From Shigella phage Henu12, in the sequence record OQ834936: a stretch of DNA of 64,000 bases, one strand, 5' to 3'. This document shows positions 3,182-41,109 of this stretch, in pieces (positions within the stretch are counted from its first letter, which is position 1; the number at the start of each line of letters is the position of its first letter). The notes beneath the pieces are model-generated. The model was not told the origin of the DNA. It worked only from the letters and a program-made list of their open reading frames with translations, and did no database searches. A program made the position numbers and the translations under genes.

Positions 3182-3337
3182 TATAGATTACCTCTTTAAT
3201 TTGTTGTAAGATTGCTTCTGAAGCTTCTTCCCATAAGGTAGAGTTTTCAATTGAATCTTTAACCTGTGCAATACCAATATTAAAACGGGTATCACCATAC
3301 TCTTCAATCAAGTTAAGAAGCTTCTGTTTGTCCACAA

Positions 3338-3607
3338 TCACTTCCTCGTTTTAAGGACTGCATAGATTTCTTTAGACTCTTCTCCGAACCATGTGTAGTG
3401 ATTCTCGTTGATTTCAGGATGGTTGTCAACACGTATTTTGCAATCTCTTCCAACATGTTTAAGTTGTGCAGAAACACCCTGCATAAAGATGTGACAAGTT
3501 ACATCATCCATAACCGTTGGCATAATGTCAAATCTCATGTAAGTGTTATTTGGTCTTGGTAACAGAAGATAACCTTCCACAAAAAATGTTTCATTCTTCT
3601 CTGTCAT
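3338..3607 (-). CDS. hypothetical protein (89 aa)
   Basis: ORF track; overlaps the downstream gene start by 4 nt. Confidence 0.5.
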   Translation of the reverse strand: MTEKNETFFVEGYLLLPRPNNTYMRFDIMPTVMDDVTCHIFMQGVSAQLKHVGRDCKIRVDNHPEINENHYTWFGEESKEIYAVLKTRK

Positions 3608-9602: not shown

Positions 9603-9782
9603 TTACTTTTTAAATTTCTTTCCAGTTCCATTACAGTAAGGGCAACAATGACCTATACCAACTACCCCAGAACCTTCACACTCATCACAAGGTTCAGTCT
9701 CTGAGAAGTACTTGCATAGTAACATTGCAATAGCAACTATACAACCGAGTGAAAGAACAATTTCTAACCAATAACCTTGCAT
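9603..9782 (-). CDS. small membrane-anchored protein with two CxxCxGxG (DnaJ-type) zinc-finger motifs (59 aa)
   Basis: Hand translation MQGYWLEIVLSLGCIVAIAMLLCKYFSETEPCDECEGSGVVGIGHCCPYCNGTGKKFKK; AGGAGA RBS 6 nt before the ATG; just under the track cutoff. Confidence 0.45.
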   Translation of the reverse strand: MQGYWLEIVLSLGCIVAIAMLLCKYFSETEPCDECEGSGVVGIGHCCPYCNGTGKKFKK

Positions 9783-10113: not shown

Positions 10114-10140
10114 ATTAAAAAGGCTCCCGTAGGAGCCTCT
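10114..10140 (-). terminator. intrinsic terminator GGCUCC-UACG-GGAGCC plus U5
   Basis: Hairpin and U-tract downstream of the Nampt-like gene. Confidence 0.7.
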
Positions 10141-10152
10141 TATCATACTGTT

Positions 10153-11979
10153 TTAAAGTTGCTTGTCAATAGTATTTCGAACATCACGCAGGTTAACGTA
10201 ACCATAAGGTTGCGAGTTACTAAATACCAGTTTCAAAGCACTATGACAGTTGTCAATTGCACCTTCAAACTCTGCAAAGCCAAAACCATCTACAGCTACC
10301 AGCTTGTCACCATCCCACATAGGGACAACTCCACCAAAAGCAGACTTCTTAAGACCGCTGTCAGTTTTAGGGTCTTTAGCCAGCATAATTTCTTGACCAT
10401 CCATCTGTGCAAGAGTTGCTTTAACAGCAAATGCAAAGGTGTCACGAGTCAGGTACTGATAGGTGTATGAGCCTACACCAAACACTACGTTAGAACTTGC
10501 AAAACCTTTATCAGCAAGACGTGACAGAATCTCATTAGCCCTTTCCAGAGTGATAGAATCACCGTAGATTAGCCCAATGTGCTCATCCAGTACTTTGTAC
10601 CCTTTGGAGTTAACAGTGCCACCAAAGATGTTATACAGCGTGTGTATAGCTCCATCAATTTCTGCTGTTAACATACGCTTCACAGTAAACTGTCCAGTTT
10701 TCTGAGCGGTAATCAGGTTGATTGTGTCAATATAATCAAAATCTTCATTTTCAACAACCATCTCATAACCTTCAGAGATTAACCAAGCAGAGAACCCAAA
10801 ACCAATATCAGACATTTCACAATTCAAGATTGTGTCATGCAGATGGGTATTATCTGGTGCAAGACCTTTCATGTGCTTGTAGAACATTGACTTAGCAGTT
10901 TCCCATTCAACGGCTTTGTAACCTGTAACAATGTGAACAGGGTCTCCAGAGTCTGGACGAATTACCAACTTACCATCACGATTCAGAATTACATTACGTA
11001 GCTCTGGCAGAATCTGTGTAACAGTACGCCAGAAGTTGTAAGTATCTGATACGGCACTTGCAATACCAGTTGGGTAAACTTCTGTCAGAAGGCGATGGAA
11101 AGTTTCTACCTCACCACGCCAACGTTTGGCATCTAGTAATCCTTCAGACTGCATAATGTACTGTGAGTGAATATCCTCTTCTGTCAGGTCTTTCATATTC
11201 CATGAAATGTTTGCACACATCACAGAGTGTTCAGTTGCTGGTACAGAGTTGCCAATATCACTGATTGTCATAAACTGACCATAAGCACGTTTAGCAGTAT
11301 ACACAGCAGGGAAGCTGTCAGTACCTTTAAAGCTGGTCAAGTGACCTACAGCATTAAAAGCATCATCTGTGAAGCCAGACATACCACGCATTGCAAAATC
11401 ATGACACTGCCAAGGTAAATGGAAGTCATTGTCACAGGTCTTGTCAGCCCATTGTTTACAGATACGTTTGTAATGCAGTGCAATAGTTGCAATCGTACAA
11501 GCCTTCCAGATTTCAGCAGAGAAAGCATCTTCAAGGTAACCAGCTACCCAATGGAATCCCTCTACAGTGTTTTTAAAGACAATCATCGGGACACGCATAG
11601 GGACAATTGTACCTTCCTCTACAGAGTAGACTTCAACAGGTAGGTAACCCAAGTCATGAAGTTCTTCCCAATGTTGACGACCAATAGCATCTGCACCAAG
11701 GACACCATTCATGATTTCCAAGATTTCGTCAATGGCTTCTTTCTTATCACGTTCAAAGAACGTTGCATTCCAGTGGTCTACCAGATAGTCTTTTACAAAA
11801 CGCTGAATACCAAAGGCTACAACACCATCAATCTCTAACGGAGAGTTAAACCATTTATCTCCACGAGGTGTTAAGTTCAGCATAAGATACTGTGTAGCAT
11901 CTGGATACTGGTAGAAATGGCCAGATTTGTAGGCATCTGCATTAAGTGCTGCTGGTACTGCATAAAGTGATTTAGTCAT
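10153..11979 (-). CDS. nadV: nicotinamide phosphoribosyltransferase (Nampt/NadV)-like protein
   Basis: 608-aa protein with Nampt-family character (by my recognition of the translation); adjacent to the Prs-like gene. Confidence 0.8.
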   Translation of the reverse strand: MTKSLYAVPAALNADAYKSGHFYQYPDATQYLMLNLTPRGDKWFNSPLEIDGVVAFGIQRFVKDYLVDHWNATFFERDKKEAIDEILEIMNGVLGADAIGRQHWEELHDLGYLPVEVYSVEEGTIVPMRVPMIVFKNTVEGFHWVAGYLEDAFSAEIWKACTIATIALHYKRICKQWADKTCDNDFHLPWQCHDFAMRGMSGFTDDAFNAVGHLTSFKGTDSFPAVYTAKRAYGQFMTISDIGNSVPATEHSVMCANISWNMKDLTEEDIHSQYIMQSEGLLDAKRWRGEVETFHRLLTEVYPTGIASAVSDTYNFWRTVTQILPELRNVILNRDGKLVIRPDSGDPVHIVTGYKAVEWETAKSMFYKHMKGLAPDNTHLHDTILNCEMSDIGFGFSAWLISEGYEMVVENEDFDYIDTINLITAQKTGQFTVKRMLTAEIDGAIHTLYNIFGGTVNSKGYKVLDEHIGLIYGDSITLERANEILSRLADKGFASSNVVFGVGSYTYQYLTRDTFAFAVKATLAQMDGQEIMLAKDPKTDSGLKKSAFGGVVPMWDGDKLVAVDGFGFAEFEGAIDNCHSALKLVFSNSQPYGYVNLRDVRNTIDKQL

Positions 11980-11999
11980 CTTTTTATCTCTCTCAAAGT

Positions 12000-12015
12000 G
12001 GGGCTTTTCAGCCCC
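12000..12015 (-). other. conserved stem-loop GGGGCU-GAAA-AGCCCC between Prs-like and Nampt-like genes
   Basis: Perfect 6-bp stem with GNRA-type loop; same 16-mer at 7138-7153 and a variant at 45251-45266. Confidence 0.55.
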
Positions 12016-12023
12016 TAAAGTTG

Positions 12024-12923
12024 TTATTCAATATTTGCTACGGTCACTTGTGAGAAGTGGGAAAGACCACGGTCTTTTTCATCCCCTAGTGAGTTTGTAG
12101 TGTAGATATGGTCGATACCATTGTCAAGGAGATTTTCAACACCTTTAGAGAAAATCCCATGAGTGACATACAGTTCCACACGTTCTGCTCCAGCTTCACG
12201 AAGATACTTTGCAGCCTCGATAAAGGTTCGACCACCGTCACAGATATCATCCAGAATCATGACAGTCTTACCTGTCAAGTCTACATCATCAAGGATTCGC
12301 ATACCAGTGATTTCACCAGTTTTCAGGTTTCGTACCTTAGCCATTGTAATATAAGGTTTATCAACCTCTTTAGCAGCCTCTTCAGTCTTCTTAGCTGCAC
12401 CTGCATCTGGAGCCACTAAGTAATCAATGCGTGGGTCACTTGCAAAGTGGACTGCTGCCTCTTTTTGAGGGAGGTTGTAGAAGCTCTTAAACAAATTCTC
12501 TGCAACATTACTGTGAGTATCCAGAGCACATACTGCATCGAACTCCATAGCATTTACAAGATTTGCAAAGACTTTAAGTGCTGCTGCATCACCTTTAAAC
12601 ATGTGACGGTCATAGCGAGCATTTGGTAAGAATCCAAAGACAACAGTTTTCAGAGTTGCTTTCTGAGGAATCAAACGGTCAATTGCTTCTTTAGCCATAG
12701 CTAATGCAAAGAGTGTGTCTTTGTCATAACCTTGTACTGTGAAGACTACGTTTTCAATCTTACCAGCAGCATGTTCAGCAAAGTCTACTAAGTCTTCTGA
12801 GAAGTTACCACCAATCTCCCCAGAAGGGAACTGGATAATGTTGAAGGTCTCTTGATGAGAACCTTTGGAATTTGAATTAAGTAGAACTCGAATAGTAGTT
12901 TTCATAATATTTCTCTCAGTCAA
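12024..12923 (-). CDS. ribose-phosphate pyrophosphokinase (Prs)-like protein
   Basis: PRPP-binding loop VMILDDICDGGRT; 299 aa. Confidence 0.8.
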   Translation of the reverse strand: MTERNIMKTTIRVLLNSNSKGSHQETFNIIQFPSGEIGGNFSEDLVDFAEHAAGKIENVVFTVQGYDKDTLFALAMAKEAIDRLIPQKATLKTVVFGFLPNARYDRHMFKGDAAALKVFANLVNAMEFDAVCALDTHSNVAENLFKSFYNLPQKEAAVHFASDPRIDYLVAPDAGAAKKTEEAAKEVDKPYITMAKVRNLKTGEITGMRILDDVDLTGKTVMILDDICDGGRTFIEAAKYLREAGAERVELYVTHGIFSKGVENLLDNGIDHIYTTNSLGDEKDRGLSHFSQVTVANIE

Positions 12924-13221
12924 AAGTTACAAATGTTACAGCCATAGCTGATTTACATTTCTTTGGGTCTACAATGTGGTAGATAACTGAACAGTTTCCT
13001 GTTCCGTCTGGTACTGGTTTTGTCCAAGTACGTTCAATATTTGGCTCTCCAAACTCTTTATAGAATCCGTTGGAATAGTGGTTTACCATCTCAATAGCAA
13101 GTGCATCTGGAACGTGACCACGTATCATATACATCTCACAACCATTTCCACCATCACTCACTAGTGGTATAATATCCCATTGTTCTCTAGCCATGATAAG
13201 TTGCCTCATAAACTGTCTCAA
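12916..13221 (-). CDS. hypothetical protein (101 aa)
   Basis: ORF track. Confidence 0.45.
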   Translation of the reverse strand: MRQFMRQLIMAREQWDIIPLVSDGGNGCEMYMIRGHVPDALAIEMVNHYSNGFYKEFGEPNIERTWTKPVPDGTGNCSVIYHIVDPKKCKSAMAVTFVTFD

Positions 13222-13702
13222 GCTTCAACAAGAGAGATATTGCCAGAAATGCGTATTCCCTGTCAAGCATTGGTGGCATATTATTTATAAGATATGCTTC
13301 CTGTTCTTCCCAAGTCATCTTAGGAGCTTCTGGAAGCTTCTCTCCCTGCTTCTGGTTATCTTCTTGAGTCTGGATAAACCAGTTCGAGCAATGGTGCTCT
13401 CCACCTTTTGTCACGGGCTTATGGTGGCCTAATGTGAAAGCTTTCTTTCCAGAATATCTACAAAGCTTATTAAGAGTTGCAATAGTGTTCTTGACAACAC
13501 AGTATTCATAGAGGTTGTCAATAGTATAGTGAGGGTAGTACTGGAACAAGGCACTATCACGAAACTTACCACGGTTCCAAAGTACCATGTGGTTAGAATT
13601 TGAAGGGTCATACTGATGTGAATCGATGAACTCTTGACGCTCATCAAAATCAAGACGAAGAACAGACATTGCAGCAGCACGTTTCAGATTTGAATGGTAC
13701 AT
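13187..13702 (-). CDS. HNH endonuclease-like protein
   Basis: Motif GHHKPVTKGGEHHCSNW (His-His...Asn...His). Confidence 0.55.
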   Translation of the reverse strand: MYHSNLKRAAAMSVLRLDFDERQEFIDSHQYDPSNSNHMVLWNRGKFRDSALFQYYPHYTIDNLYEYCVVKNTIATLNKLCRYSGKKAFTLGHHKPVTKGGEHHCSNWFIQTQEDNQKQGEKLPEAPKMTWEEQEAYLINNMPPMLDREYAFLAISLLLKLETVYEATYHG

Positions 13703-13711
13703 GATTTCTCC

Positions 13712-13742
13712 AAAATAAAAAGGGAACCTTTTACAGTTCCCT
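13712..13742 (-). terminator. intrinsic terminator AGGGAAC-loop-GUUCCCU plus U-tract
   Basis: Hairpin followed by UUUUUAUUUU on minus RNA, then GGAG RBS of the HNH gene. Confidence 0.6.
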
Positions 13743-31908: not shown

Positions 31909-34608
31909 ATGGACAATGTAGATTTCGAAAAATTACATTTGGTTGGTGATACAGAAACTGATGGGTTGCTCCTTGAGTTTACAAAAGCACACGTAATGGC
32001 TTTCGCAGACTATAAAGATGACAGTGATGAACCTGCTGTGTGGGTTTTCACTGATGAGCCTATTCTTGGTCACAAGTATACAAAATACATCAAAGGTGGT
32101 CTGCGTGAAGGTGTTGAGTTTGCACTGAAAGCTAAACGTCTTTGTATCCACAATGGTCTTGGTTATGACTGGTGGGTGTTTAATCACATTGCACCTGACC
32201 TGTGGAACTTTGAGAATCCTAAGTGTAAGCCTTGGAGTGACTTCTTTCAGGATTCACTTATCCAATCTCGCGTACAGTGGATGGATAGACCTACACCAAA
32301 AGGTTACAAAGGTGCTCATGGTTTGGCTGCATGGGGTGCTCGTGTTGGTGTTCGTAAACCAGAGATTGAAGAGTGGGGTGTATGGAATGCAGAGATTCTT
32401 ACTCGTGTTGTAGAAGATATTAAGATTAACGCCAAAACTAAACGTGCTCTTGATAATGAGTACCTTAAGCTTAAGAAGTGTGGTGTTGACACTTATGAAA
32501 CCTATATGCGAGCTAAAGAAACATCTTTCTGGATGAGCCAGCAAGCTATCAACGGTTGGAAAGCTGATGTAGAACTTATGCAGTTCCATGTTAAAGAACT
32601 TGACAAGTTAACTAATGAGTTAGCTGCTGAGGTTGAGCCACACCTGCCACCAACTATCAAGACAAAAGGTAAGGTCACAGGTGAAGAGTTTGCTAAGTCT
32701 TGGAATGAGTATGTGGATACATTTGGTCACGTTGACGGCTTAAAAAGGATTACCAAGTACCCTAAGACAAAGTATCGTGAACAGATGCGTGAAGGTGAGT
32801 TGAAGCAATACCCTATCAAGCCATATGGAAAGCCAACTACAAAGATTTTTAACGTTGAGAAACGTAACTGCTACACACCAACTAATACGGTTACCAAAGA
32901 AGAGTACCCTGAAGGTTTCGTAGCAATGAAAGATGCTCGTGCAGTTTGTAATGAACTGAATGAGAAGATTGGGAAGAAGTGTAAAGATTGGAAACCAGTT
33001 AAGACTGTGAAGATTGTGAAGTACTATAATGTGCATGTTGTAAATCACTTCGAGTTGGAGTCAAGTCGCTACACTGGTTTGATTGATGCACCATTCACAC
33101 CAATTGAGTTTGAAGTTTCACGAATGACTCAGGTAGCTGTGGTGAAGGATTACTTAAAATCTGTTGGTTGGATTCCTGATGATTGGAACTACAAAAAAGA
33201 TTCTGATGGTCGTCCGGTTAAGGTTTGCAGATTCAAAGACAACAAAAAGATGATTCGCAAACATCCTAAGTGGGATGAGATGGTTGAGCGTTGTGGGTTG
33301 AACTATATTGAGCATGAAGGTGTCTATTACATCGAGCATAACTGGTCTGTTAAGAAGTACACAGATGTGCTTGAGCCTTGCTTGATTAGGACTTCACCAA
33401 AGCTTACAGAGTCTTCTTATGATACAATCGAAGGTGAGCTTGGACAGAAGATTGCGAAGTACTATACTTTGATGCACCGACGCAGGACTATTGAGAACTC
33501 AAAGGATGATGAGAAAGGTTGGCTGAACCAGATTCGTCCAGATGGTCGTTTGAGTGCAGGTGCAATGGTGTTTGGTACTTCTACTGGACGTATGACTCAG
33601 TATGGTATTGTAAACGTACCTTCTGGTGCTGCTGTTTACGGTGAGCCAATGAGGGCAGTGTGGATTTGTGAAGAGGGAACCAACGTAGTATCTGTTGATA
33701 TGAACTCTGCACAGCTTGTACTACTCTGTAACTTCATGGGTGATAAAGACTTCACCAAAGCGGTAACAGAGGGTAAAGAAGAGATTGAGTTTGTTCGTCA
33801 AGAGGATGGAAGATACTACTGCAAACACTTTGACCAGTATCTGAATCCAGAGATTGACAAGTATCTGCGTTATGACTCTGAAAACGATTTGTACGTAGTT
33901 TACTCAGGGACTGATGCTCACACTCTGAACAGTATCTACTTCAGCCTTAATGATGAGCAAGATATCTTGACTTGTCGTGCTACTCAGGATGAGAATCTTC
34001 TTCATGAGATTAGCAAGGGACGTAAGAAAGCTAAGAATGGTATCTATGCCCTGTTGTTCGGTGCAGGTGATGAGAAGTTTGCTAAAACAATTAAAGCAGC
34101 AACTACTCAGGAAGGTGCATTGACTAAGCAGACTTACTTTGTGCGCTTGCCGAAGATTAAGAAACTGTTAGACAACTTGGAAGCTGATTTCAAAGCAACT
34201 AAGAAAGCACTTGAAGAGGTGTTTGGTAAAACTGCTGCGATAGCTAAAGGTGGTTTTGTGAAGGTTGCTGGAGCTTGGCTGTGGTGTAAGTCTCCACACA
34301 AGCTGTTAAATTACCTTTTGATGGGTTCAGAAAGTCAAGTCCAGAATGAAGCAATTAACCTTGCATGTCGTCGTATGATTGATGAAGGTTTGATGAAGTT
34401 GAATGGTCGTAAACCAGCTATTGGCGCTCGCTTACTCTGTGCTTACCACGACGAAACAAGTTGGGAATGTCCAGAGCACATGACAGCAGATGTGAAAGCA
34501 GTAACTGACTGGTATTATGGTCAAGCATCTAAGAACCTTGGACTAAGGAAAGAAACCTTGGTAACAGGTACTGGTAAAGTTGGTAAGAGCTGGTATGAGG
34601 TACATTGA
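31909..34608 (+). CDS. DNA polymerase, family A (T7 gp5-like) with 3'-5' exonuclease domain
   Basis: DTETDG exo motif; HGLAAWGARVG, YALLFGAGDEK and HDE blocks resemble T7 DNA polymerase. Confidence 0.9.
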   Translation: MDNVDFEKLHLVGDTETDGLLLEFTKAHVMAFADYKDDSDEPAVWVFTDEPILGHKYTKYIKGGLREGVEFALKAKRLCIHNGLGYDWWVFNHIAPDLWNFENPKCKPWSDFFQDSLIQSRVQWMDRPTPKGYKGAHGLAAWGARVGVRKPEIEEWGVWNAEILTRVVEDIKINAKTKRALDNEYLKLKKCGVDTYETYMRAKETSFWMSQQAINGWKADVELMQFHVKELDKLTNELAAEVEPHLPPTIKTKGKVTGEEFAKSWNEYVDTFGHVDGLKRITKYPKTKYREQMREGELKQYPIKPYGKPTTKIFNVEKRNCYTPTNTVTKEEYPEGFVAMKDARAVCNELNEKIGKKCKDWKPVKTVKIVKYYNVHVVNHFELESSRYTGLIDAPFTPIEFEVSRMTQVAVVKDYLKSVGWIPDDWNYKKDSDGRPVKVCRFKDNKKMIRKHPKWDEMVERCGLNYIEHEGVYYIEHNWSVKKYTDVLEPCLIRTSPKLTESSYDTIEGELGQKIAKYYTLMHRRRTIENSKDDEKGWLNQIRPDGRLSAGAMVFGTSTGRMTQYGIVNVPSGAAVYGEPMRAVWICEEGTNVVSVDMNSAQLVLLCNFMGDKDFTKAVTEGKEEIEFVRQEDGRYYCKHFDQYLNPEIDKYLRYDSENDLYVVYSGTDAHTLNSIYFSLNDEQDILTCRATQDENLLHEISKGRKKAKNGIYALLFGAGDEKFAKTIKAATTQEGALTKQTYFVRLPKIKKLLDNLEADFKATKKALEEVFGKTAAIAKGGFVKVAGAWLWCKSPHKLLNYLLMGSESQVQNEAINLACRRMIDEGLMKLNGRKPAIGARLLCAYHDETSWECPEHMTADVKAVTDWYYGQASKNLGLRKETLVTGTGKVGKSWYEVH

Positions 34609-35120
34609 TGCGAGATTGTGGATTCACACATGAACAGTTAAAGTCTTGGTTAAACTATGACCCCGAAACAGGGGTCTTAACGTGGATTGGCAGGCCTCCA
34701 CATAGTAGTAGGGTGGTTATTGGGAGCCAAGCCGGAGCAATCAAGCGCACAAGGTCTGGTGTGTATATGCACACACAGATTTTAGGATACAGGACAGGCA
34801 ATCACCGAATTGCTTGGTTCTGGATGACAGGCAAGTGGCCTGATAAACACATTGACCACAAAGATGGAGATGGTTTGAATAACGCTTGGGACAATCTCAG
34901 GGAGGCCACAAAAGAACAGAACATGTCTAATAGGAGACAACCCAGAACATCAAAAAACTTAAAAGGTACAAGTAGAAGCAAGTCTGGTAAGTGGATAGCC
35001 CAGATTAACCATAATGGCAAGACTATACATATAGGTACATACACAACAGAAGAAGAAGCCCATAAAGCTTACTGTGAAGCTGCTATTAAACTCCACGGAG
35101 AGTTTGCAAAACTAAGTTGA
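34605..35120 (+). CDS. HNH homing endonuclease with AP2-like domain
   Basis: YDPETGVLTW, IDHKDGDGLNNAWDNLREATKEQN and AP2-like C-terminus; ATGA overlap with the polymerase stop. Confidence 0.7.
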   Translation: MMRDCGFTHEQLKSWLNYDPETGVLTWIGRPPHSSRVVIGSQAGAIKRTRSGVYMHTQILGYRTGNHRIAWFWMTGKWPDKHIDHKDGDGLNNAWDNLREATKEQNMSNRRQPRTSKNLKGTSRSKSGKWIAQINHNGKTIHIGTYTTEEEAHKAYCEAAIKLHGEFAKLS

Positions 35121-35171
35121 CAAGGTGCTCATGGAAGAGTACCTTATACTATATCTTGTATAGGAGGTTAC

Positions 35172-35390
35172 ATGACACTTTCAGACGTTATCCAACAACT
35201 TCAGGTAAGTGGTTACACTCAAGAGCAAATTGATGAGCTAAACATCATATCCATGCCAAACCGTTTTGTTAAAGCTTTTGGGTTAGAAGTTGTAAGGATG
35301 GCACATATACTCATTGTGGATGGTCTTCTTATCAAAGACAGAACTGGTGCTTTGAAAGGTAAGAGAATCGATATCACGGAGATATTATGA
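35172..35390 (+). CDS. hypothetical protein (72 aa)
   Basis: ORF track; AGGAGG RBS. Confidence 0.45.
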   Translation: MTLSDVIQQLQVSGYTQEQIDELNIISMPNRFVKAFGLEVVRMAHILIVDGLLIKDRTGALKGKRIDITEIL

Positions 35391-35596
35391 GTCACCGTGG
35401 TAGAACTCATCTTGCCATGATGCAAGGGGCTTCAAAAGAGACTATCAAGAATCGTAAGAAAACTCTTTTTGACAGAATGAATAGACTCATTGACAATGCA
35501 AGTCTACCTAACTCTGAAAAGGTTTTCTTGAAAGGGAATCTGAAGAGTATTGCACAGGAACTTATTGACATTGAATTTTGGAGACACCAAAAATGA
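35387..35596 (+). CDS. hypothetical protein (69 aa)
   Basis: ORF track. Confidence 0.45.
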   Translation: MSHRGRTHLAMMQGASKETIKNRKKTLFDRMNRLIDNASLPNSEKVFLKGNLKSIAQELIDIEFWRHQK

Positions 35597-35796
35597 CTTA
35601 TGAAGAAGCTATTGAAGCCATGAAGAGTGGTCACAAAGTACGTAATGAAAATTTCACATCTGATGAGTTCTTCGAAATGAAAGATGGGAAGATTGTCTGT
35701 GAAATGGGTTACCCAATGGCTACATGGTATAAGGGAGAACCTTGGCAGAAAACTGGATGGAGTATCTTTAATGAAATTTTACACCATTTGGGGTAG
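35578..35796 (+). CDS. hypothetical protein (72 aa)
   Basis: ORF track; preferred over the overlapping 35684-35914 frame. Confidence 0.4.
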   Translation: METPKMTYEEAIEAMKSGHKVRNENFTSDEFFEMKDGKIVCEMGYPMATWYKGEPWQKTGWSIFNEILHHLG

Positions 35797-35903
35797 AGTC
35801 GGTAAAGGTTATGACTGGATTCTCCTTAAAACAAATGTTAAAAGTAATGAGATAGTTTACTACAAAGTCTATTACCATAAAACTTTTAGAGAGGTAGAGT
35901 ATC

Positions 35904-36155
35904 GTGAGCAGTAGAGAAGAAGAAGCTTTAGCAATCTTCAAGAATGAAGATAAATCAATATCTTTTGTATCAGAGGCTTGGTGCAGGGGCTTAGGTTATG
36001 ATTGGTATCTCTTCTTATGTGCTAAGAAAGATGTTAAACCAGTTGATGAAACCCGATTCAAAGAACTGTATACTGTCTGCCAAGAGGGTTATGAAGAACA
36101 CTACGAAGGCTCTTTGAATCCTGTAAATTCAAAAGCTTCAGATTTATTTTATTGA
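35904..36155 (+). CDS. hypothetical protein (83 aa)
   Basis: ORF track. Confidence 0.45.
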   Translation: MSSREEEALAIFKNEDKSISFVSEAWCRGLGYDWYLFLCAKKDVKPVDETRFKELYTVCQEGYEEHYEGSLNPVNSKASDLFY

Positions 36156-36165
36156 GAGGTCTAAA

Positions 36166-36402
36166 ATGTTAAAATTATTGATACCAGCTTTAGTAGTTCT
36201 ACTAGTTGGGTGTAACCCTTCTTACGAGAATAAGGATGCTTCTTACAGACTTCCTCCAGAAATGCAAGACTGCAAGATTTATAAGCTTAATGGTGATGCA
36301 ACTAGCAGGGATGTTATTGTAGTTCGCTGTCCAAATTCTCAGACGACTACTTCTTACAAGTATGGAAAGAATAGTCAGTCACATACTACTGTTTTTGATT
36401 GA
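36166..36402 (+). CDS. putative lipoprotein (signal peptide ending LLVGC)
   Basis: Lipobox-like LVGC after a hydrophobic signal. Confidence 0.5.
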   Translation: MLKLLIPALVVLLVGCNPSYENKDASYRLPPEMQDCKIYKLNGDATSRDVIVVRCPNSQTTTSYKYGKNSQSHTTVFD

Positions 36403-36412
36403 GGATATTAAT

Positions 36413-36619
36413 ATGCAGGTTCTGGTAAATTTTATCTATAAGTATGAAAACATCTTCAGCACCATGACTGAAGGTCAACGCAATCCAGTTATCCCACGGG
36501 AAGGGGAGATTGTTGAGATTAATGACTGGAACCACAGAGTTGCAGAGGTCAAGCATAAACTTAAAGATGGTTATGACCACCAAGTTGTAAATGTGTATTT
36601 AGAAGGTAAGTGGCAATGA
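36413..36619 (+). CDS. hypothetical protein (68 aa)
   Basis: Start set at internal Met with GAGGA RBS (track start 36362). Confidence 0.4.
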   Translation: MQVLVNFIYKYENIFSTMTEGQRNPVIPREGEIVEINDWNHRVAEVKHKLKDGYDHQVVNVYLEGKWQ

Positions 36620-36710
36620 GCATCTTACATATCATCTCTGAAGATTTTGGAGGGTGCTCTTGGCACTCATTTTTCACAAAAGGTTGTCTAGCTTGTGAGG
36701 CACGTAAAAA

Positions 36711-37811
36711 ATGACAATTCTGTACAAACAAAACAAAGATGGTTCTTTCAACGTTTGGTCATGTGTTGCTGTAGGTGATAAAGTTGTTACAACCTACGGT
36801 AAAGAAAATGGCAAGATGATGTTCGAAGAGTACACAGCAGAACCAAAGAACATTGGTAAGAAGAATGAGCGTAATGCTGAACAGCAAGCTCTCTTTGAAG
36901 TTGCTGCTAAGTACAAGAAGCAGGTTGACCGTAAAGGGTATGCTTACACAAAGTCTGAAGCAGAGAATGTTGAGAAGGTTGGTGTACAGCTTGCTCAGGA
37001 TGCTTCCAAGATAAGTCACAAGAAGTATCTGGTATTCCCTGCCGATGCTCAACCTAAACTTGATGGTGTTCGTTGCAGGATTTCAAGAGATGCTGACTCA
37101 GAAAGTTTTACGGCATATTCTCGTGAGAACACGGTATACAACATTCCTGTAGAGTTGATTCCTGATGTTCTTCTTATGCTGAAACTGCACAAAGATGTTG
37201 AGGATTTCGATGGTGAGATTTATGCTCATGGTTGGGACTTGGAAGATATTGTATCTATGATTAAGAATGCTGACAATCCAGACCGTCACCTTCTTAAGTT
37301 CTACTGGTATGATATCTGTGACAAGACTAAATCTTGGCCTGAGCGTCGTGAAGTTATTGAGACTTCACCTTTAAATGACCTGAGAAATGGCTGTAGAGTT
37401 GTCCCTGTTAAATCTCGTCGTGTTAACTCTTGGGAAGAATTTGACACTGCTCATGATAAGTGGGTTGAAGCGAAGTTTGAAGGGGCAATGTACCGTTCAA
37501 TCTCCCCAGATTCATTCTATGAGTGTGGTCACCGTTCATACTTCTTGATTAAACATAAGAAGATGCACACCAAAGAGTTCACAGTAACGGGTGTGAAGAC
37601 TGATAAGCGTGGTCATGGCAAGTTCGTTGTAGAGACTCTTCCTAACGTCTTTGTAGATGTTTCATGGAAAACTACACACGAGAAGAAAAAGTATCTTGCT
37701 GAACATCCTGAAGAGTTTATCGGGAAGCCTTTAACGGTTCAGTTCCAGAAGATGACTCGTAAGGGTTCTTTACAGTTCCCTGTTGGGCTAGTAATTCGAG
37801 ACTATGAATAG
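36711..37811 (+). CDS. ATP-dependent DNA ligase
   Basis: Adenylation motif I KLDGVR and overall size (366 aa) typical of phage ligases. Confidence 0.75.
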   Translation: MTILYKQNKDGSFNVWSCVAVGDKVVTTYGKENGKMMFEEYTAEPKNIGKKNERNAEQQALFEVAAKYKKQVDRKGYAYTKSEAENVEKVGVQLAQDASKISHKKYLVFPADAQPKLDGVRCRISRDADSESFTAYSRENTVYNIPVELIPDVLLMLKLHKDVEDFDGEIYAHGWDLEDIVSMIKNADNPDRHLLKFYWYDICDKTKSWPERREVIETSPLNDLRNGCRVVPVKSRRVNSWEEFDTAHDKWVEAKFEGAMYRSISPDSFYECGHRSYFLIKHKKMHTKEFTVTGVKTDKRGHGKFVVETLPNVFVDVSWKTTHEKKKYLAEHPEEFIGKPLTVQFQKMTRKGSLQFPVGLVIRDYE

Positions 37812-37819
37812 AGGCCAGT

Positions 37820-37969
37820 ATGTTTAGTGCAATTGTTCTGTTTATATTTGTTGTTTTATCATTGGCTTACTTCACAAGTAAACTCTTAAGTATAACATAC
37901 AAAGCAGCCTTAGCCCTTACTCTGTTGTCATTTGCAGTAAATGCAGCAGTTAGAATGTATTTAGTATAA
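37820..37969 (+). CDS. small hydrophobic membrane protein (49 aa)
   Basis: Hand translation MFSAIVLFIFVVLSLAYFTSKLLSITYKAALALTLLSFAVNAAVRMYLV; GAGG RBS 5 nt upstream. Confidence 0.35.
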   Translation: MFSAIVLFIFVVLSLAYFTSKLLSITYKAALALTLLSFAVNAAVRMYLV

Positions 37970-37974
37970 AATTG

Positions 37975-38003
37975 TTGACATGAGTAACCTGACGGGTATA
38001 CTA
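37975..38003 (+). promoter_or_regulatory. sigma70-like promoter TTGACA-N16/17-TATACT
   Basis: Good -35 and -10 about 40 nt upstream of the secreted-protein gene. Confidence 0.55.
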
Positions 38004-38046
38004 CCTATATAGAAAATTATATAGGAACCCGTCAGAAACCTCGGGG

Positions 38047-38433
38047 GTGTTTATGAAAAAGTTACTTGTTGGTGTCATTGCTCTTGGTATGAGTTTTAGT
38101 GCAGCAGCTATGAAGATGCCTGAAGCAAACTTTAATGGTATCGCTTTAGAATCTTGTAAGATTGTACAGAAAATCGCTTCAAATGCTGGAGAGTTGACTA
38201 AACCGTTGTCTGCTCAGACTGTTCAAGAAATGACTGATAAGATGGTTGACTACAACTACCATTTTATGGGAGATTACTATGACAGATTAGCAGATGAGAT
38301 GGTCACTCAGAACGTTGACCTTCTTGATAGCAAAGGTATTGAGACTGTAGAAGATGTGAAAGACAACTTTATGCGTGAGTCTTTCAAAGGTGTTCAATAC
38401 TTTATTGAAAATCGTCACTGCATGGGTTTATAA
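38047..38433 (+). CDS. secreted/periplasmic hypothetical protein (signal peptide)
   Basis: N-terminal signal MKKLLVGVIALGMSFSAAA. Confidence 0.5.
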   Translation: MFMKKLLVGVIALGMSFSAAAMKMPEANFNGIALESCKIVQKIASNAGELTKPLSAQTVQEMTDKMVDYNYHFMGDYYDRLADEMVTQNVDLLDSKGIETVEDVKDNFMRESFKGVQYFIENRHCMGL

Positions 38434-38435
38434 TC

Positions 38436-38639
38436 ATGAAGAAGAACATCTGTAGAACAGACTATGGTGAAGTGGTCGATGATGACGGAGTAGTTATTTA
38501 CAGAGTTTGGGCTAATGATTTTGCAACCGTTGTAGAATCTTTAGATAACTACATTAATGGGACTCGTGAAAACGTCAGAGCAACTAATCTTGATTCGTTA
38601 ATAGACACTTCTCGAAAACGGAGAAAGAAAGATGAATGA
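38436..38639 (+). CDS. hypothetical protein (67 aa)
   Basis: ORF track. Confidence 0.45.
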   Translation: MKKNICRTDYGEVVDDDGVVIYRVWANDFATVVESLDNYINGTRENVRATNLDSLIDTSRKRRKKDE

Positions 38640-38931
38640 AGTCTTTGACCCATATGCACCTCAAGATTCTTGGGAGGCTGATAGAGAGGCTGAAATGGAG
38701 AGTTATGTCTGTCCAATGGATATAGAAGAGATGAAAGACTTTGTATCTTTCAGATTCTTTAAAGAGATTGAGAAGCTAAAACTTTCTCAGGCTCAAGTAG
38801 CAACTGTTTGTGAAATCTCGCAGAGTCGTGTGTCAAATATCATTAACGACCCTCAAAAGATTTCTTTAGAGTACATGCTTAATGCTTGTACAAAACTTGG
38901 TGTAAATTTTAACTTAAGGCTGGCAGATTAA
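38632..38931 (+). CDS. helix-turn-helix DNA-binding protein
   Basis: HTH-like segment LSQAQVATVCEISQSRVSNI. Confidence 0.5.
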   Translation: MNEVFDPYAPQDSWEADREAEMESYVCPMDIEEMKDFVSFRFFKEIEKLKLSQAQVATVCEISQSRVSNIINDPQKISLEYMLNACTKLGVNFNLRLAD

Positions 38932-38932
38932 T

Positions 38933-39292
38933 ATGAAACGTGAAAATGCAATCTTTAATGATAACTTTGCAATTGGCTTCTATGGTAAACCAACTCCAGC
39001 AGAGAAACTTTATGGTAATGCAATTCTGGAGACCTTGAAAGAGGTTTACACAACTGGTGGTATGAAGCATACTGAAGCAAACCGTGTAAGAGGTTATATG
39101 GCAATTGGCTCTGCAATCTCTAACATCAAACTTGAAACTACAAGTGCTAAAAAGGTACGAGACCACTTCATCAAAGAGTTGTCAGATAACCTAGATGGTG
39201 TTGAAGTCAAGGCTGTCTGGTTAGATGTTGATGGTCACAACTACACAACTTTTGTGTTTAAAAATGAGGATATCAAATGTCTCTTCCCTTAA
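38933..39292 (+). CDS. hypothetical protein (119 aa)
   Basis: ORF track. Confidence 0.5.
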   Translation: MKRENAIFNDNFAIGFYGKPTPAEKLYGNAILETLKEVYTTGGMKHTEANRVRGYMAIGSAISNIKLETTSAKKVRDHFIKELSDNLDGVEVKAVWLDVDGHNYTTFVFKNEDIKCLFP

Positions 39293-39780
39293 AACTCGAT
39301 TTATACTTTGGGTACAGTGTATTGCAAGGCAGCATACTATCACTACCAAAGTCAGATTATCGTTGTGATTTAGGTTCTGTGAAACGTGCATCACACTTTA
39401 ACAACAACATCTTAGGCTTGCAGACACTTCACAGGTGGCTTGAGGAAGATGGACGGTTGAATGAATATCTTCACCAACTAGAACTAGCCAAAGAAGAAGG
39501 GCATATGGGTTGGGATTTACTACCCCATCTGTACAAGCCTGCAAGCCCTATGGAGATACGCTATAACGAACAAGCAATTGATAGTTATAACAAATATAAT
39601 ATAACTATTGGCTCCAGAGCTTGGAAGGAGTATATGAAACTCCGTGAAATCATCATACAGACTATTGGAAAGCGTGTAGCAAAAGGTCTTGCTTATGATG
39701 AAAAGGTTGACTGGAATACACAAAAGTGTATAAAATTCTTCAAGTACGATAATGACAAGGATACTTTTGTAGAGGTTTAA
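39277..39780 (+). CDS. hypothetical protein (167 aa)
   Basis: ORF track. Confidence 0.5.
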   Translation: MSLPLKLDLYFGYSVLQGSILSLPKSDYRCDLGSVKRASHFNNNILGLQTLHRWLEEDGRLNEYLHQLELAKEEGHMGWDLLPHLYKPASPMEIRYNEQAIDSYNKYNITIGSRAWKEYMKLREIIIQTIGKRVAKGLAYDEKVDWNTQKCIKFFKYDNDKDTFVEV

Positions 39781-39781
39781 C

Positions 39782-40297
39782 ATGAAAATTGGAATTACCT
39801 TTTGCCAGCCTGAAGCAGAGTTCTTGAAATCAATGTTGTCTGAGCATATGAAAGCTACAAATCATACTGAGAAGACATTCTTGATTGACACTAACTATGA
39901 TGCAGGAACTATTGAGTTCATTGATGAAGACACTGCTGACTCTCTGTGTGTTCTTCCTGCTCACTTATTTACTCCAGAGCTACGTGACAGTCGTTCTATT
40001 GAAGTTAATCTGGAGCCAAGTATTGAACTCTACTCAGACATACAGTATCCAAGAAGCTTTAAAGCATTGCTAAACATCTTCATAGCTGATATTGTAGAGA
40101 TTGTTAAGCAGACCGAAGGTGGTCATGTAGTAACTGCTGAGTATGAACAAGGGACTATCAAACTGACAGGTGACTTTGGTTCTATGAGTTTCTTAGACTT
40201 TGTTCCAAAACACTTTGAAGATTTCCTGTCAAGTGAAGTTGATGACCTTGATTTCATACTAAAATTTGAACGCACTTTTAAGGTAAACAAAAAATGA
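39782..40297 (+). CDS. hypothetical protein (171 aa)
   Basis: ORF track. Confidence 0.5.
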   Translation: MKIGITFCQPEAEFLKSMLSEHMKATNHTEKTFLIDTNYDAGTIEFIDEDTADSLCVLPAHLFTPELRDSRSIEVNLEPSIELYSDIQYPRSFKALLNIFIADIVEIVKQTEGGHVVTAEYEQGTIKLTGDFGSMSFLDFVPKHFEDFLSSEVDDLDFILKFERTFKVNKK

Positions 40298-40566
40298 AAA
40301 TCTTAAGCGGAGTATCACAGTGTTACATGAATGATGGTGAGCCAGTTAAATGCTGCCATTGTGGAGGTGAGAACTTCCAAGGTGAAGTTTCAGAGATTGT
40401 CTCTGGCAACATCGCTGAAGAGTACACCCGTTGCTGTGGATGTGGAAAGATTTTATCTTTTTGGGCTTATGGAAGTTATGAACCACAACCTCACCTTATT
40501 TACCATCCGAACAGGATTGTGAAGCGTGTTCTGAACTGGTTCATTATCAAAGGATTTACAAAATGA
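40294..40566 (+). CDS. zinc-ribbon protein (CxxC...CxxC)
   Basis: CCHCGG and CCGCG cysteine clusters. Confidence 0.45.
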   Translation: MKILSGVSQCYMNDGEPVKCCHCGGENFQGEVSEIVSGNIAEEYTRCCGCGKILSFWAYGSYEPQPHLIYHPNRIVKRVLNWFIIKGFTK

Positions 40567-41108
40567 TTAAGCTAATTTTTGCAAGTGGTATTAACGGGGA
40601 ATTTGGCACAGCTACTGGAATGCCTTGGCCTCGTAATAAACAAGATATGGCAGAGTTTAAGAAGCAGACTATTAACCAGTTAGTCTTGGTGGGTAGCGAA
40701 ACTTGGAAGACTCTTGGGAGCAAACCTTTGCCAAACCGTGAGAACCTTGTCTTGACAAACTCTCTTGACTTTTATGGTCTGGACTTTAAAGATGATTCTC
40801 ATTGCAAAGCAAAAGTTAAGTCTGAAGCTTTTGGGGCTTTCCTAAAGTATATTGATAGTTCTATTGATGAAGATGTTTTAGTAATCGGTGGAGCCAATAT
40901 CTTAATCTCAGCTTTGCCGTATGCTGACGTAGTTTTCCACAGTGTTATTAAGGAAGTTACTGAAGAGGCTACTGTCAAGCTACCTTATGAGGGTTTCTTC
41001 CAGTACTTGTATGACACAGAGTTATTTGCTAAAGTACAGTCCAAACCCTCAGAAGATAAGTCTGTGGTGTTTGATACCTATGTTCCACAAGTAAGAGGAC
41101 GTTTCTAA
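40563..41108 (+). CDS. frd: dihydrofolate reductase
   Basis: DHFR-like N-terminus (GMPWP...F) and VIGGANI glycine motif; directly upstream of thymidylate synthase. Confidence 0.75.
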   Translation: MIKLIFASGINGEFGTATGMPWPRNKQDMAEFKKQTINQLVLVGSETWKTLGSKPLPNRENLVLTNSLDFYGLDFKDDSHCKAKVKSEAFGAFLKYIDSSIDEDVLVIGGANILISALPYADVVFHSVIKEVTEEATVKLPYEGFFQYLYDTELFAKVQSKPSEDKSVVFDTYVPQVRGRF

Positions 41109-41109
41109 T

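What the first reader, a model, noticed from the sequence alone, without database searches (positions are those of the whole stretch)
10153..12923. Adjacent Prs-like and Nampt-like genes: classical NAD+ salvage or NARP1-type NAD+ reconstitution?
Seen: a 299-aa Prs-like protein (PRPP loop VMILDDICDGGRT) lies immediately upstream of a 608-aa Nampt-like protein, with only a conserved stem-loop between them. Established (from memory, to be verified): phage NadV/NatV salvage is known, and a recently described pathway (NARP1) uses a Prs homologue (Adps, ADP-ribose pyrophosphokinase) plus a Nampt homologue (Namat) to rebuild NAD+ from ADP-ribose and nicotinamide, countering NAD+-depleting immunity such as Thoeris, DSR and SIR2 systems. 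Inference: this pair has exactly that two-gene architecture and may be Adps/Namat rather than housekeeping-type Prs/Nampt. The Nampt-like protein is over 100 aa longer than typical Nampt.
Basis: partly seen in the sequence, partly recalled or inferred. Interest (0 to 1): 0.7.

Follow-up and report, generated by a model that had tools for sequence, protein, structure and literature searches.

The report
Known phage NAD+ rebuilding operon (NARP1)
The two adjacent genes are the already-described phage NARP1 pair (Adps plus Namat), which rebuilds NAD+ from ADP-ribose and nicotinamide to defeat NAD+-depleting bacterial immunity. Proteins identical to these are already listed in the paper that discovered the pathway.

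Summary
On the minus strand, a Prs-like gene (12024..12905, 293 aa from its likely ATG; 299 aa as the maximal ORF) lies 44 nt upstream of a 608-aa Nampt-like gene (10153..11979). A GC-rich hairpin sits between them.

The window is a Mooglevirus (Ounavirinae) phage, 99% identical to Shigella phage Henu11. Both proteins are 100% identical to Henu11 gp31 and gp32. Osterman et al. (the NARP1 discovery paper) already list these in their supplementary tables as an Adps-clade protein associated with Namat, and as an Adps-associated Namat.

The proteins are 81% and 75% identical, in the same gene order, to Bas63 genes 79 and 80, the operon whose deletion defined NARP1.

- **Namat residues:** the catalytic core, the signature GSYTYQYLTRD and the Bas63-type K-W clamp loop are all present.
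- **Adps residues:** the catalytic lysine, the ADPR-binding residues and the missing Prs C-terminal helices are all as expected.

The roughly 100 extra residues are two insertions shared with Bas63 Namat, so they do not argue against NARP1.

No Nmnat (NARP2), Macro-domain (NARP1-AP) or RyR accessory gene was found.

The only undescribed detail is the insertion subdomain in Namat.

The parts
12024..12905 (-). adps: ADP-ribose pyrophosphokinase (ADPR-PP synthetase), 293 aa from the ATG at 12905. The maximal ORF extends to the TTG at 12923 (299 aa).
   Evidence: It is 100% identical to Henu11 gp31 and 81% identical to Bas63_0079. It is listed in the Adps clade in the Osterman supplement. Catalytic K190 and the ADPR-site residues F26, R97, H131, D167 and D219/D220 are conserved relative to ICP1 Adps.
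12225..12251 (-). Adps PP loop, DDICDGGRT (residues 219-227 in 293-aa numbering). In ICP1 Adps this loop binds the ATP-derived pyrophosphate donor.
   Evidence: Alignment with ICP1 Adps, which reads DDICDGAAS. The role of the loop is taken from PMC13586617.
12000..12015 (-). Intergenic hairpin GGGGCU-GAAA-AGCCCC, followed by ACUUUG, and then the GAGAGAGA Shine-Dalgarno of namat.
   Evidence: -12.8 kcal/mol, z = -3.6. The stem is invariant and the loop variable in Bas63, EC6, HP1 and Henu11. It does not meet the terminator scan's U-tract rule. No Rfam match.
10153..11979 (-). namat: nicotinamide ADP-ribose transferase, 608 aa.
   Evidence: It is 100% identical to Henu11 gp32 and 75% identical to Bas63_0080. 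The best PDB sequence hit is SPbetaL1 Namat 9W5W/9W5X at 2e-125, against 1e-41 for human NAMPT. The AF2 model's best structural hit is 9W5X, with target-normalised TM-score 0.94.
10441..10473 (-). Namat selectivity-clamp helix motif GSYTYQYLTRD (residues 503-513). Y505 and Y509 correspond to the adenine-stacking residues F392 and Y396 of SPbetaL1 Namat.
   Evidence: One search gives the residue mapping. The motif is defined in PMC12774641. True Nampt enzymes read GGALLQKVDRD (Xcc) or GAQTYQRNTRD (HdNadV) at this position.
11851..11862 (-). Namat selectivity-clamp loop G40-D41-K42-W43, following T37-P38-R39. This is the Bas63 type: Lys at the third position and an aromatic stacking residue at the fourth.
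   Evidence: The rule comes from PMC12774641.
11119..11205 (-). Namat insertion 1 (residues 259-287), absent from SPbetaL1 and FADO Namat.
   Evidence: It is predicted helical and has no Pfam hit.
10654..10887 (-). Namat insertion 2 (residues 365-442, part of a predicted alpha/beta subdomain spanning about 356-442). It is shared with Bas63 and other Namats of 590-610 aa.
   Evidence: The AF2 10-residue block mean pLDDT is 79-95 across the region. No Pfam hit. Not mentioned in the Namat structure paper.
10118..10141 (-). Intrinsic terminator directly after the namat stop codon: a 10-bp stem followed by a U tract.
   Evidence: The sequence is identical in Bas63.
13721..13742 (-). Upstream intrinsic terminator. 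It marks the likely 5' limit of the transcription unit that contains adps and namat.
12916..13702 (-). Two upstream ORFs that appear to be co-transcribed with adps and namat: 171 aa (13187..13702, HNH-like, phrog_3500) and 101 aa (12916..13221, phrog_4726). They are probably not part of NARP1.
   Evidence: The 171-aa protein is also upstream of adps in Erwinia phage Coenus. In Stephanstirmvirinae phages it lies next to a UvrD helicase instead.

Best explanation
The pair is a NARP1 operon (NAD+ reconstitution pathway 1) of a Mooglevirus phage.

When a host defence system (SIR2, TIR or SEFIR type, such as SIR2-HerA, DSR1/2 or type I Thoeris) cleaves NAD+ into ADP-ribose and nicotinamide, two steps follow:
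1. Adps (12024..12905, minus strand) transfers the beta-gamma pyrophosphate of ATP to the 1'' hydroxyl of ADPR, producing ADPR-PP.
2. Namat (10153..11979, minus strand) replaces that pyrophosphate with nicotinamide, regenerating NAD+ directly. No NMN intermediate or host NadR/PncC is needed.

Shown here: identity, orthology, gene order and signature residues. Inferred from homologues: the enzyme chemistry (assayed for the SPbetaL1 and ICP1 enzymes) and the anti-defence phenotype (Bas63 and FADO deletions).

The two genes probably lie in one transcription unit bounded by intrinsic terminators. A conserved hairpin between them may attenuate read-through or stabilise the transcript; this last point is inference only.
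For: 1. Both proteins are 100% identical to Henu11 gp31/gp32. These are listed in the Osterman et al. supplementary tables as Adps ('Yes', Namat-associated) and Namat ('Adps-associated').
2. They are 81% and 75% identical to Bas63_0079/0080, with the same NrdG ... adps-namat ... rIIA gene order. Deleting that Bas63 operon sensitised the phage to SIR2-HerA. It also removed ADPR-PP from infected cells, and the protection did not need host pncC/nadR.
3. Namat features. The catalytic residues D15, Y17, F195, R198, D221, H251, R341, D343 and G473/D474 are conserved. [quoted passage not shown] The clamp loop has the Bas63-type K-W. Bona fide Nampt enzymes lack these aromatics.
4. The best sequence and structure matches in the PDB are SPbetaL1 Namat.
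5. Adps features. The catalytic Lys (K190, equivalent to ICP1 K185 and SPbetaL1 K162) and the ADPR-site residues are conserved. The Prs C-terminal alpha11-alpha12 module is absent. The protein fails every NCBIfam Prs equivalog cut-off, for example 100 bits against a cut-off of 297. In a small NJ tree it groups with the validated Adps enzymes, with E. coli Prs as the chosen outgroup.
Against: No enzyme from this phage or genus has been assayed. The chemistry was measured on enzymes only 30-47% identical (SPbetaL1, ICP1). Bas63 Adps could not be purified.

SPbetaL1 Namat retains some PRPP-to-NMN activity in vitro, so a minor salvage contribution cannot be excluded.

The PP loop differs from ICP1's at three positions (GGRT against GAAS), and F92 and F223 of ICP1 are not conserved.

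The two Namat insertions have no known role.
Confidence: 0.93

Rival explanations
1. Classical salvage: the first enzyme is a true PRPP synthetase and the second a true Nampt/NadV. Together they would make NMN, which host NadR or PncC-dependent routes then convert to NAD+.
For: The database names say so. Pfam, PHROGs and the GenBank records call them ribose-phosphate pyrophosphokinase and nicotinamide phosphoribosyltransferase. The Nampt-like protein passes the NCBIfam NF006629 cut-off, 465 bits against 405. SPbetaL1 Namat can make NMN from PRPP when ADPR-PP is absent.
Against: The 75-81% identical Bas63 operon worked in a pncC nadR double mutant and produced ADPR-PP in vivo. No product was detected when SPbetaL1 Adps was tested for PRPP synthesis. 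The window Prs-like protein fails all Prs equivalog cut-offs and lacks the Prs C-terminal module. The Nampt-like protein carries the Namat-specific adenine clamp, which real Nampt enzymes lack.
Confidence: 0.04
2. A NARP2-type or NARP3-type pathway: Nampt plus Nmnat as in KVP40, or PnuC plus a NadR-like enzyme as in Bas30.
For: A Nampt-family protein is present.
Against: NARP2 Nampt proteins form a separate clade and are accompanied by an Nmnat rather than an Adps. No phage was found with both pathways. A six-frame scan of the window found no NMNAT-type HxGH motif and no Nudix-box motif. The Henu11 annotation for record positions 1-50000 names no Nmnat, PnuC or NadR gene; most genes there are annotated only as hypothetical proteins, so this is weak evidence. 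NARP3 uses unrelated proteins.
Confidence: 0.01
3. NARP1 chemistry plus an added function carried by the lineage-specific Namat insertion subdomain. Possibilities include docking to the Adps hexamer to channel the labile ADPR-PP, regulation, or resistance to a host inhibitor.
For: The insertion at 356-442 is conserved across Namats of 590-610 aa from several phage groups. It is predicted with good confidence as a compact alpha/beta unit. It begins about a dozen residues after the catalytic RPD strand. SPbetaL1 Namat, which lacks it, does not bind Adps stably.
Against: There is no homology to any Pfam family and no experimental hint. Namats without the insertion are fully functional. Insertions at this site vary widely in length between lineages, which is typical of neutral surface decoration.
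Confidence: 0.15

Closest known systems
NARP1 operon of Escherichia phage JohannRWettstein (Bas63), genes 79-80 (Osterman et al., bioRxiv 10.1101/2024.02.11.579819)
   Same: Same subfamily (Ounavirinae). Same gene order, NrdG ... adps-namat ... rIIA. 81% and 75% protein identity. The same long Namat with both insertions. The same intergenic hairpin stem and the same downstream terminator.
   Different: Different genus (Mooglevirus against Felixounavirus). Namat is 15 aa longer, in insertion 1. The hairpin loop is GAAA rather than UGAA. The window phage itself has not been tested experimentally.
Shigella phage Henu11 gp31/gp32 (OM953433)
   Same: Both proteins are 100% identical. The surrounding DNA is about 99% identical. 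Both are already tabulated as NARP1.
   Different: Henu11 carries a 929-nt insert with two paralogous 149-aa ORFs between the 101-aa ORF and adps. The window lacks this insert.
SPbetaL1 Adps/Namat (biochemically characterised; Namat structures 9W5X and 9W5W)
   Same: Same two-gene order. The catalytic residues, clamp motif and catalytic Lys are conserved. It is the best structural match, with target-normalised TM-score 0.94.
   Different: Only 45% (Namat) and about 31-33% (Adps) identity. SPbetaL1 Namat is 491 aa without the insertions, uses Arg40 rather than K-W in the clamp loop, and its gene overlaps adps with no hairpin.
Vibrio phage ICP1 Adps (structures in PMC13586617)
   Same: PRPS-like fold. 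Catalytic Lys, F18, R87, H121, D161 and D212/D213 equivalents, C215-D216 of the PP loop and F221 are conserved. The Prs alpha11-alpha12 module is absent.
   Different: 31-35% identity. The PP-loop tail is GGRT rather than GAAS. The F92 and F223 equivalents are M and E.
Canonical Nampt/NadV (human NAMPT, Xanthomonas Nampt 7YQO, Haemophilus ducreyi NadV 9KE8, KVP40 Nampt of NARP2)
   Same: Same fold and the same nicotinamide/ribose-phosphate catalytic core.
   Different: They lack the aromatic adenine-clamp residues and prefer PRPP. They are not paired with an Adps. Sequence E-values are 1e-41 to 1e-100, against 1e-125 for Namat.

Membership tests
NARP1 - Adps (ADPR-PP synthetase) | PRPS-like protein that falls in the phage Adps clade rather than with cellular Prs | tested here: met
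   The identical Henu11 protein is listed in the published Adps/Prs table as Namat-associated. The protein is 81% identical to Bas63 Adps. In a small NJ tree with E. coli Prs as the chosen outgroup, it groups with ICP1, SPbetaL1, FADO and Bas63 Adps. It fails all NCBIfam Prs equivalog cut-offs.
NARP1 - Adps (ADPR-PP synthetase) | Catalytic beta-hairpin lysine (SPbetaL1 K162, ICP1 K185) | tested here: met
   K190 in 293-aa numbering (K196 in the 299-aa ORF) aligns with both.
NARP1 - Adps (ADPR-PP synthetase) | ADPR acceptor-groove residues (ICP1 F18', R87, H121, D161, D212, D213) | tested here: met
   F26, R97, H131, D167, D219 and D220 are conserved. ICP1 F92 is M102 in the window.
NARP1 - Adps (ADPR-PP synthetase) | Remodelled PP loop that binds the ATP donor (ICP1 C215-S220, with F221/F223 as a lid) | tested here: inconclusive
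   The window reads DDICDGGRTF against ICP1 DDICDGAASF. C, D and the first F are conserved, but GRT replaces AAS and F223 is E. SPbetaL1 and FADO differ further, so the sequence rule is loose.
NARP1 - Adps (ADPR-PP synthetase) | Loss of the Prs C-terminal alpha11-alpha12 filament and regulatory module | tested here: met
   In the alignments, the window protein ends roughly 20-25 residues before the C-terminus of E. coli Prs, as do all Adps proteins aligned.
NARP1 - Adps (ADPR-PP synthetase) | Converts ADPR and ATP to ADPR-PP, and does not convert ribose-5-phosphate to PRPP | not testable with these tools
   Needs enzyme assays. This has been shown only for SPbetaL1 and ICP1 Adps.
NARP1 - Namat (nicotinamide ADPR transferase) | Nampt-like catalytic core (SPbetaL1 D13, Y15, F189, R192, D215, catalytic His, R306, D308, G360/D361, G390/S391) | tested here: met
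   All are conserved: D15, Y17, F195, R198, D221, H251, R341, D343, G473/D474 and G503/S504.
NARP1 - Namat (nicotinamide ADPR transferase) | [quoted passage not shown] | tested here: met
   GSYTYQYLTRD at residues 503-513, with Y505 and Y509. Xcc Nampt reads GGALLQKVDRD and HdNadV reads GAQTYQRNTRD. The motif definition is from PMC12774641.
NARP1 - Namat (nicotinamide ADPR transferase) | Selectivity-clamp loop with a stacking residue (Arg at the third position, or Lys/Tyr followed by a stacking fourth residue) | tested here: met
   TPR-G-D-K-W matches the stacking part of Bas63's TPR-S-D-K-W.
NARP1 - Namat (nicotinamide ADPR transferase) | Encoded next to an adps gene | tested here: met
   There are 44 nt between the adps stop codon and the namat start codon, on the same strand.
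NARP1 - Namat (nicotinamide ADPR transferase) | Prefers ADPR-PP over PRPP and makes NAD+ directly | not testable with these tools
   Needs enzyme assays. This has been shown for SPbetaL1 Namat.
NARP1 as an anti-defence system | Loss of the operon sensitises the phage to NAD+-depleting defence systems | not testable with these tools
   Shown for Bas63 (SIR2-HerA) and FADO (DSR2), not for this phage.
NARP1-AP (with Macro-domain Adpp phosphatase) or RyDEP-extended NARP1 | A Macro-domain or RyR-domain gene within or next to the operon | tested here: not met
   Pfam and PHROGs scans covered four ORFs upstream and two ORFs downstream of the pair (plus two further upstream ORFs in Pfam only). None has a Macro or RyR hit. 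hmmscan is less sensitive than the HHpred search used in the paper.
NARP2 (Nampt plus Nmnat, KVP40 type) | A partner Nmnat gene, and a Nampt protein of the PRPP-preferring clade | tested here: not met
   No NMNAT HxGH motif or Nudix-box motif in any frame of the window. The protein carries the Namat clamp. The publication reports that no phage has both pathways. About 25 kb of the genome lies outside the window and was not scanned here.
Cellular ribose-phosphate diphosphokinase (Prs) | Scores above the NCBIfam Prs equivalog cut-offs and has the full-length C-terminal module | tested here: not met
   The best equivalog score is 107.5 bits against a cut-off of 296. Only the broad TIGR01251 subfamily model passes. 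The C-terminal module is absent. Identity to E. coli Prs is 24-28%.

The most novel reading that the evidence does not exclude
The two lineage-specific insertions in Namat of Ounavirinae-type phages give the enzyme a property that the characterised 491-aa Namat lacks. These are residues 259-287 and, above all, the confidently predicted alpha/beta subdomain at about 356-442. The property might be physical coupling to the Adps hexamer to channel the hydrolysis-prone ADPR-PP, or evasion of a host counter-measure. No paper I could read describes this subdomain.
Probability: 0.15. Interest if true: 0.4.

Novelty: already known. Interest (0 to 1): 0.12.

Why it matters
NARP1 is an important and recently discovered viral counter-defence. 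It rebuilds NAD+ from the products that SIR2, TIR and SEFIR defence systems generate, through two reactions not known before 2024.

This locus adds nothing new to that picture. It is a catalogued copy in a sister genus of the phage in which the pathway was found.

Its practical value is for annotation. GenBank, PHROGs, Pfam and NCBIfam still call these genes ribose-phosphate pyrophosphokinase and nicotinamide/nicotinate phosphoribosyltransferase. Those names predict the wrong chemistry. The clamp motif GS[YF]T[YF]Q[YF]xTRD, together with an adjacent short Prs-like gene, is a simple rule for correcting such records.

Tried and rejected
1. **Upstream ORFs as NARP1 accessory genes.** The two upstream ORFs (171 aa HNH-like, 101 aa) appear to be co-transcribed. 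The 171-aa protein is also upstream of adps in the distant Erwinia phage Coenus (50% identity). However, in Stephanstirmvirinae phages its homologue lies beside a UvrD-type helicase with no adps or namat nearby. The 101-aa ORF has no homologue at the matching Coenus position. I rejected this as lineage gene order rather than functional linkage.

2. **Macro-domain (Adpp) or RyR-domain (RyDEP) neighbours.** None was found by Pfam or PHROGs.

3. **NARP2.** No NMNAT or Nudix motifs in six frames.

4. **Identity of the Namat insertions.** No Pfam hit even at E = 10, and no mention in the Namat structure paper.

5. **Hairpin as a known RNA family.** Rfam returned only one chance hit below the gathering score, on the downstream terminator. 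No compensatory changes are available, because the stem is invariant.

6. **Failed or wasted calls.** One supplement search timed out and was repeated. Guessing the Bas63 accession took three calls (17, 19, 21).
Full report
**Observation.** The two ORFs are present, both on the minus strand. The upstream one is Prs-like. Its maximal ORF is 12024..12923 (299 aa, TTG start). The real start is almost certainly the ATG at 12905 (293 aa). That ATG has a GAGAGA Shine-Dalgarno 7-8 nt upstream and matches the annotated starts of the Henu11 and Bas63 orthologues. The protein hits Pfam Pribosyltran and Pribosyl_synth, TIGR01251 and phrog_619. The downstream ORF (10153..11979, 608 aa) hits NAPRTase, NAMPT_N and phrog_448.

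The 44-nt spacer holds a hairpin, GGGGCU-GAAA-AGCCCC (12000..12015). Its free energy is -12.8 kcal/mol, z = -3.6 against shuffles. The namat ribosome-binding site follows it.

**Source of the window.** The window is an Ounavirinae phage of the genus Mooglevirus. It is about 99% identical to Shigella phage Henu11 and 92-96% identical to Sf13-Sf19, KPS64 and Citrobacter phage Michonne.

**Identity of the pair.** NARP1 was discovered in BASEL phage Bas63 (JohannRWettstein, genus Felixounavirus, same subfamily). Deleting its genes 79-80 made the phage sensitive to SIR2-HerA and removed ADPR-PP from infected cells. Protection did not need host pncC or nadR. The enzymology was done with the SPbetaL1 homologues: Adps converts ADPR and ATP to ADPR-PP, and no product was detected when it was tested for PRPP synthesis. 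Namat converts ADPR-PP and nicotinamide to NAD+, and prefers ADPR-PP over PRPP.

I fetched Bas63 (MZ501086).
- The window proteins are 81% (Adps) and 75% (Namat) identical to Bas63_0079/0080 over their full length.
- The neighbourhood is the same: NrdG, small ORFs, adps, namat, small ORFs, rIIA.
- Both window proteins are 100% identical to Henu11 gp31 and gp32.
- The supplementary tables of the discovery paper already list OM953433_00041 as a Namat-associated Adps-family protein and OM953433_00042 as an Adps-associated Namat. Sf13, Michonne and Moogle are listed in the same way.

The locus is therefore a catalogued NARP1 operon.

In the window protein:
- Every core residue is conserved: D15, Y17, F195, R198, D221, H251, R341, D343, G473/D474 and G503/S504.
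- The motif reads GSYTYQYLTRD, with Y505 and Y509.
- The loop reads TPR-GDKW, the Bas63-type K-W arrangement.

By contrast, Xanthomonas Nampt reads GGALLQKVDRD and Haemophilus ducreyi NadV reads GAQTYQRNTRD at the motif.

SPbetaL1 Namat is the best PDB match by sequence, at 2e-125 against 1e-41 for human NAMPT. It is also the best match by structure: the AF2 model has pLDDT 88 and pTM 0.88, and the target-normalised TM-score to 9W5X is 0.94.

**Residue-level tests, Adps.** The ICP1 Adps structures (PMC13586617) define a catalytic beta-hairpin lysine (K185), an ADPR groove (F18', R87, F92, H121, D161, D212, D213), a PP loop repurposed to hold the ATP donor, and loss of the Prs alpha11-alpha12 module.

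- The window protein has K190, F26, R97, H131, D167 and D219/D220.
- Its PP loop is DDICDGGRTF, against ICP1's DDICDGAASF.
- It ends well before the E. coli Prs C-terminus.
- ICP1 F92 and F223 are not conserved, and the PP-loop tail differs, so I score that one feature as inconclusive.
- The protein fails every NCBIfam Prs equivalog cut-off.
- In a small NJ tree with E. coli Prs as the chosen outgroup, it groups with the validated Adps enzymes.

**The extra length.** Relative to SPbetaL1 Namat, the window protein has two insertions, residues 259-287 and 365-442. Bas63 Namat (593 aa) has both. So do many Namats of 590-610 aa from Ounavirinae-like phages of Yersinia, Pectobacterium, Erwinia and Salmonella. 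Other lineages have shorter insertions at the same sites.

The larger insertion is predicted with good confidence as a small alpha/beta subdomain. It has no Pfam match and is not mentioned in the structure paper. It is therefore not evidence against NARP1. It is the one feature here that appears undescribed.

**Operon anatomy.** Terminator-like hairpins with U tracts lie at 13721..13742 and 10118..10141 on the minus strand. They bracket four genes: the 171-aa ORF, the 101-aa ORF, adps and namat. The downstream terminator is identical in Bas63.

The adps-namat hairpin stem is identical in Henu11, HP1, Bas63 and EC6, and only the loop varies. The hairpin is missing from Coenus, SPbetaL1 and FADO. 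It has only 3-4 U residues after it and fails the terminator rule. A leaky attenuator or an mRNA-stabilising element is plausible but unproven. Rfam has nothing for it.

**Rivals.**
- Classical Prs/Nampt salvage rests only on database names and on the residual PRPP activity of Namat in vitro. The Bas63 genetics and the signature residues contradict it.
- NARP2 needs an Nmnat, and no HxGH or Nudix motif exists in the window. The published survey found no phage with both pathways.
- NARP3 uses PnuC and NadR-like proteins.
- NARP1-AP (Macro-domain Adpp) and the RyDEP extension are not present among the flanking ORFs scanned.

**Accessory-gene test.** The 171-aa HNH-like protein lies upstream of adps even in Erwinia phage Coenus. 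In Stephanstirmvirinae phages it lies next to a UvrD helicase, away from any NARP1 genes. I therefore reject a functional link.

**Verdict.** The NARP1 interpretation is supported with high confidence. The novelty class is 'already known', and interest is low. The remaining open point is the role, if any, of the Namat insertion subdomain.

Noticed in passing
window 10654..10887 and 11119..11205 (minus strand; Namat residues 365-442 and 259-287): There are two insertions relative to the crystallised 491-aa Namat. The larger one is predicted as a confident alpha/beta subdomain. Both are shared by Bas63 and other Namats of 590-610 aa. They have no Pfam match and are not discussed in the Namat structure paper.
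   Followed up: partly
window about 12902..12939; Henu11 locus L007 24333..25579: Henu11 is otherwise about 99% identical to the window. It carries a 929-nt insert with two paralogous 149-aa ORFs of unknown function (gp29, gp30), exactly between the 101-aa ORF and adps. About 38 nt are duplicated at the junction. Several other Moogleviruses also align in two pieces here, so this looks like a variable cargo site just upstream of NARP1.
   Followed up: partly
window 13187..13702 (minus strand): This 171-aa protein contains an HNH-like motif (GHHKPVTKGGEHHCSNW...N). It matches phrog_3500, with weak hits to HNH endonuclease PHROGs. It is conserved upstream of adps in Ounavirinae and in Erwinia phage Coenus, but lies beside a UvrD helicase in Stephanstirmvirinae phages.
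   Followed up: yes
L010 3211..6491 (Klebsiella michiganensis chromosome): A chromosomal NrtR-type regulator (Nudix plus winged helix) is transcribed divergently from two genes. One is a 289-aa Prs-like gene, 44-48% identical to the window Adps and 28% to E. coli Prs. The other is a 496-aa Nampt-like gene carrying the Namat motif GSFTYQYNTRD. This looks like a bacterial NARP1-type pair next to an NrtR-type regulator; from memory, not checked here, NrtR regulators respond to ADP-ribose. Many Enterobacteriaceae have the 496-aa protein.
   Followed up: partly
L008 about 3218..3352 (Vibrio phage ICP1 isolate 2019_Dha_007): The namat reading frame starts about 45 nt after adps. It meets an in-frame TAG after 32 codons, which include the conserved D-x-YK-x-x-H segment. 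The annotated CDS restarts at 3353. The gene may be disrupted in this isolate, or there may be a sequencing or annotation problem.
   Followed up: no
window 9603..9782 (minus strand): This 59-aa ORF between namat and rIIA has a predicted N-terminal hydrophobic segment and two CxxC pairs (CDECEGSG ... CPYCNGTG). It gives a weak match to the DnaJ central zinc-finger domain and matches phrog_3931. The Bas63 orthologue is annotated as a putative membrane protein.
   Followed up: no
window 10153..11979 and public records: NCBIfam NF006629 (an 'equivalog' named nicotinate phosphoribosyltransferase) scores this Namat above its cut-off, 465 bits against 405. All GenBank records call the pair Prs and Nampt/NAPRTase. 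Current annotation pipelines therefore mislabel NARP1 systematically.
   Followed up: partly
window 32001..42000: GC skew turns positive (+0.13 to +0.20) only in this 10-kb block and is negative elsewhere. This probably marks a block of genes on the opposite strand.
   Followed up: no
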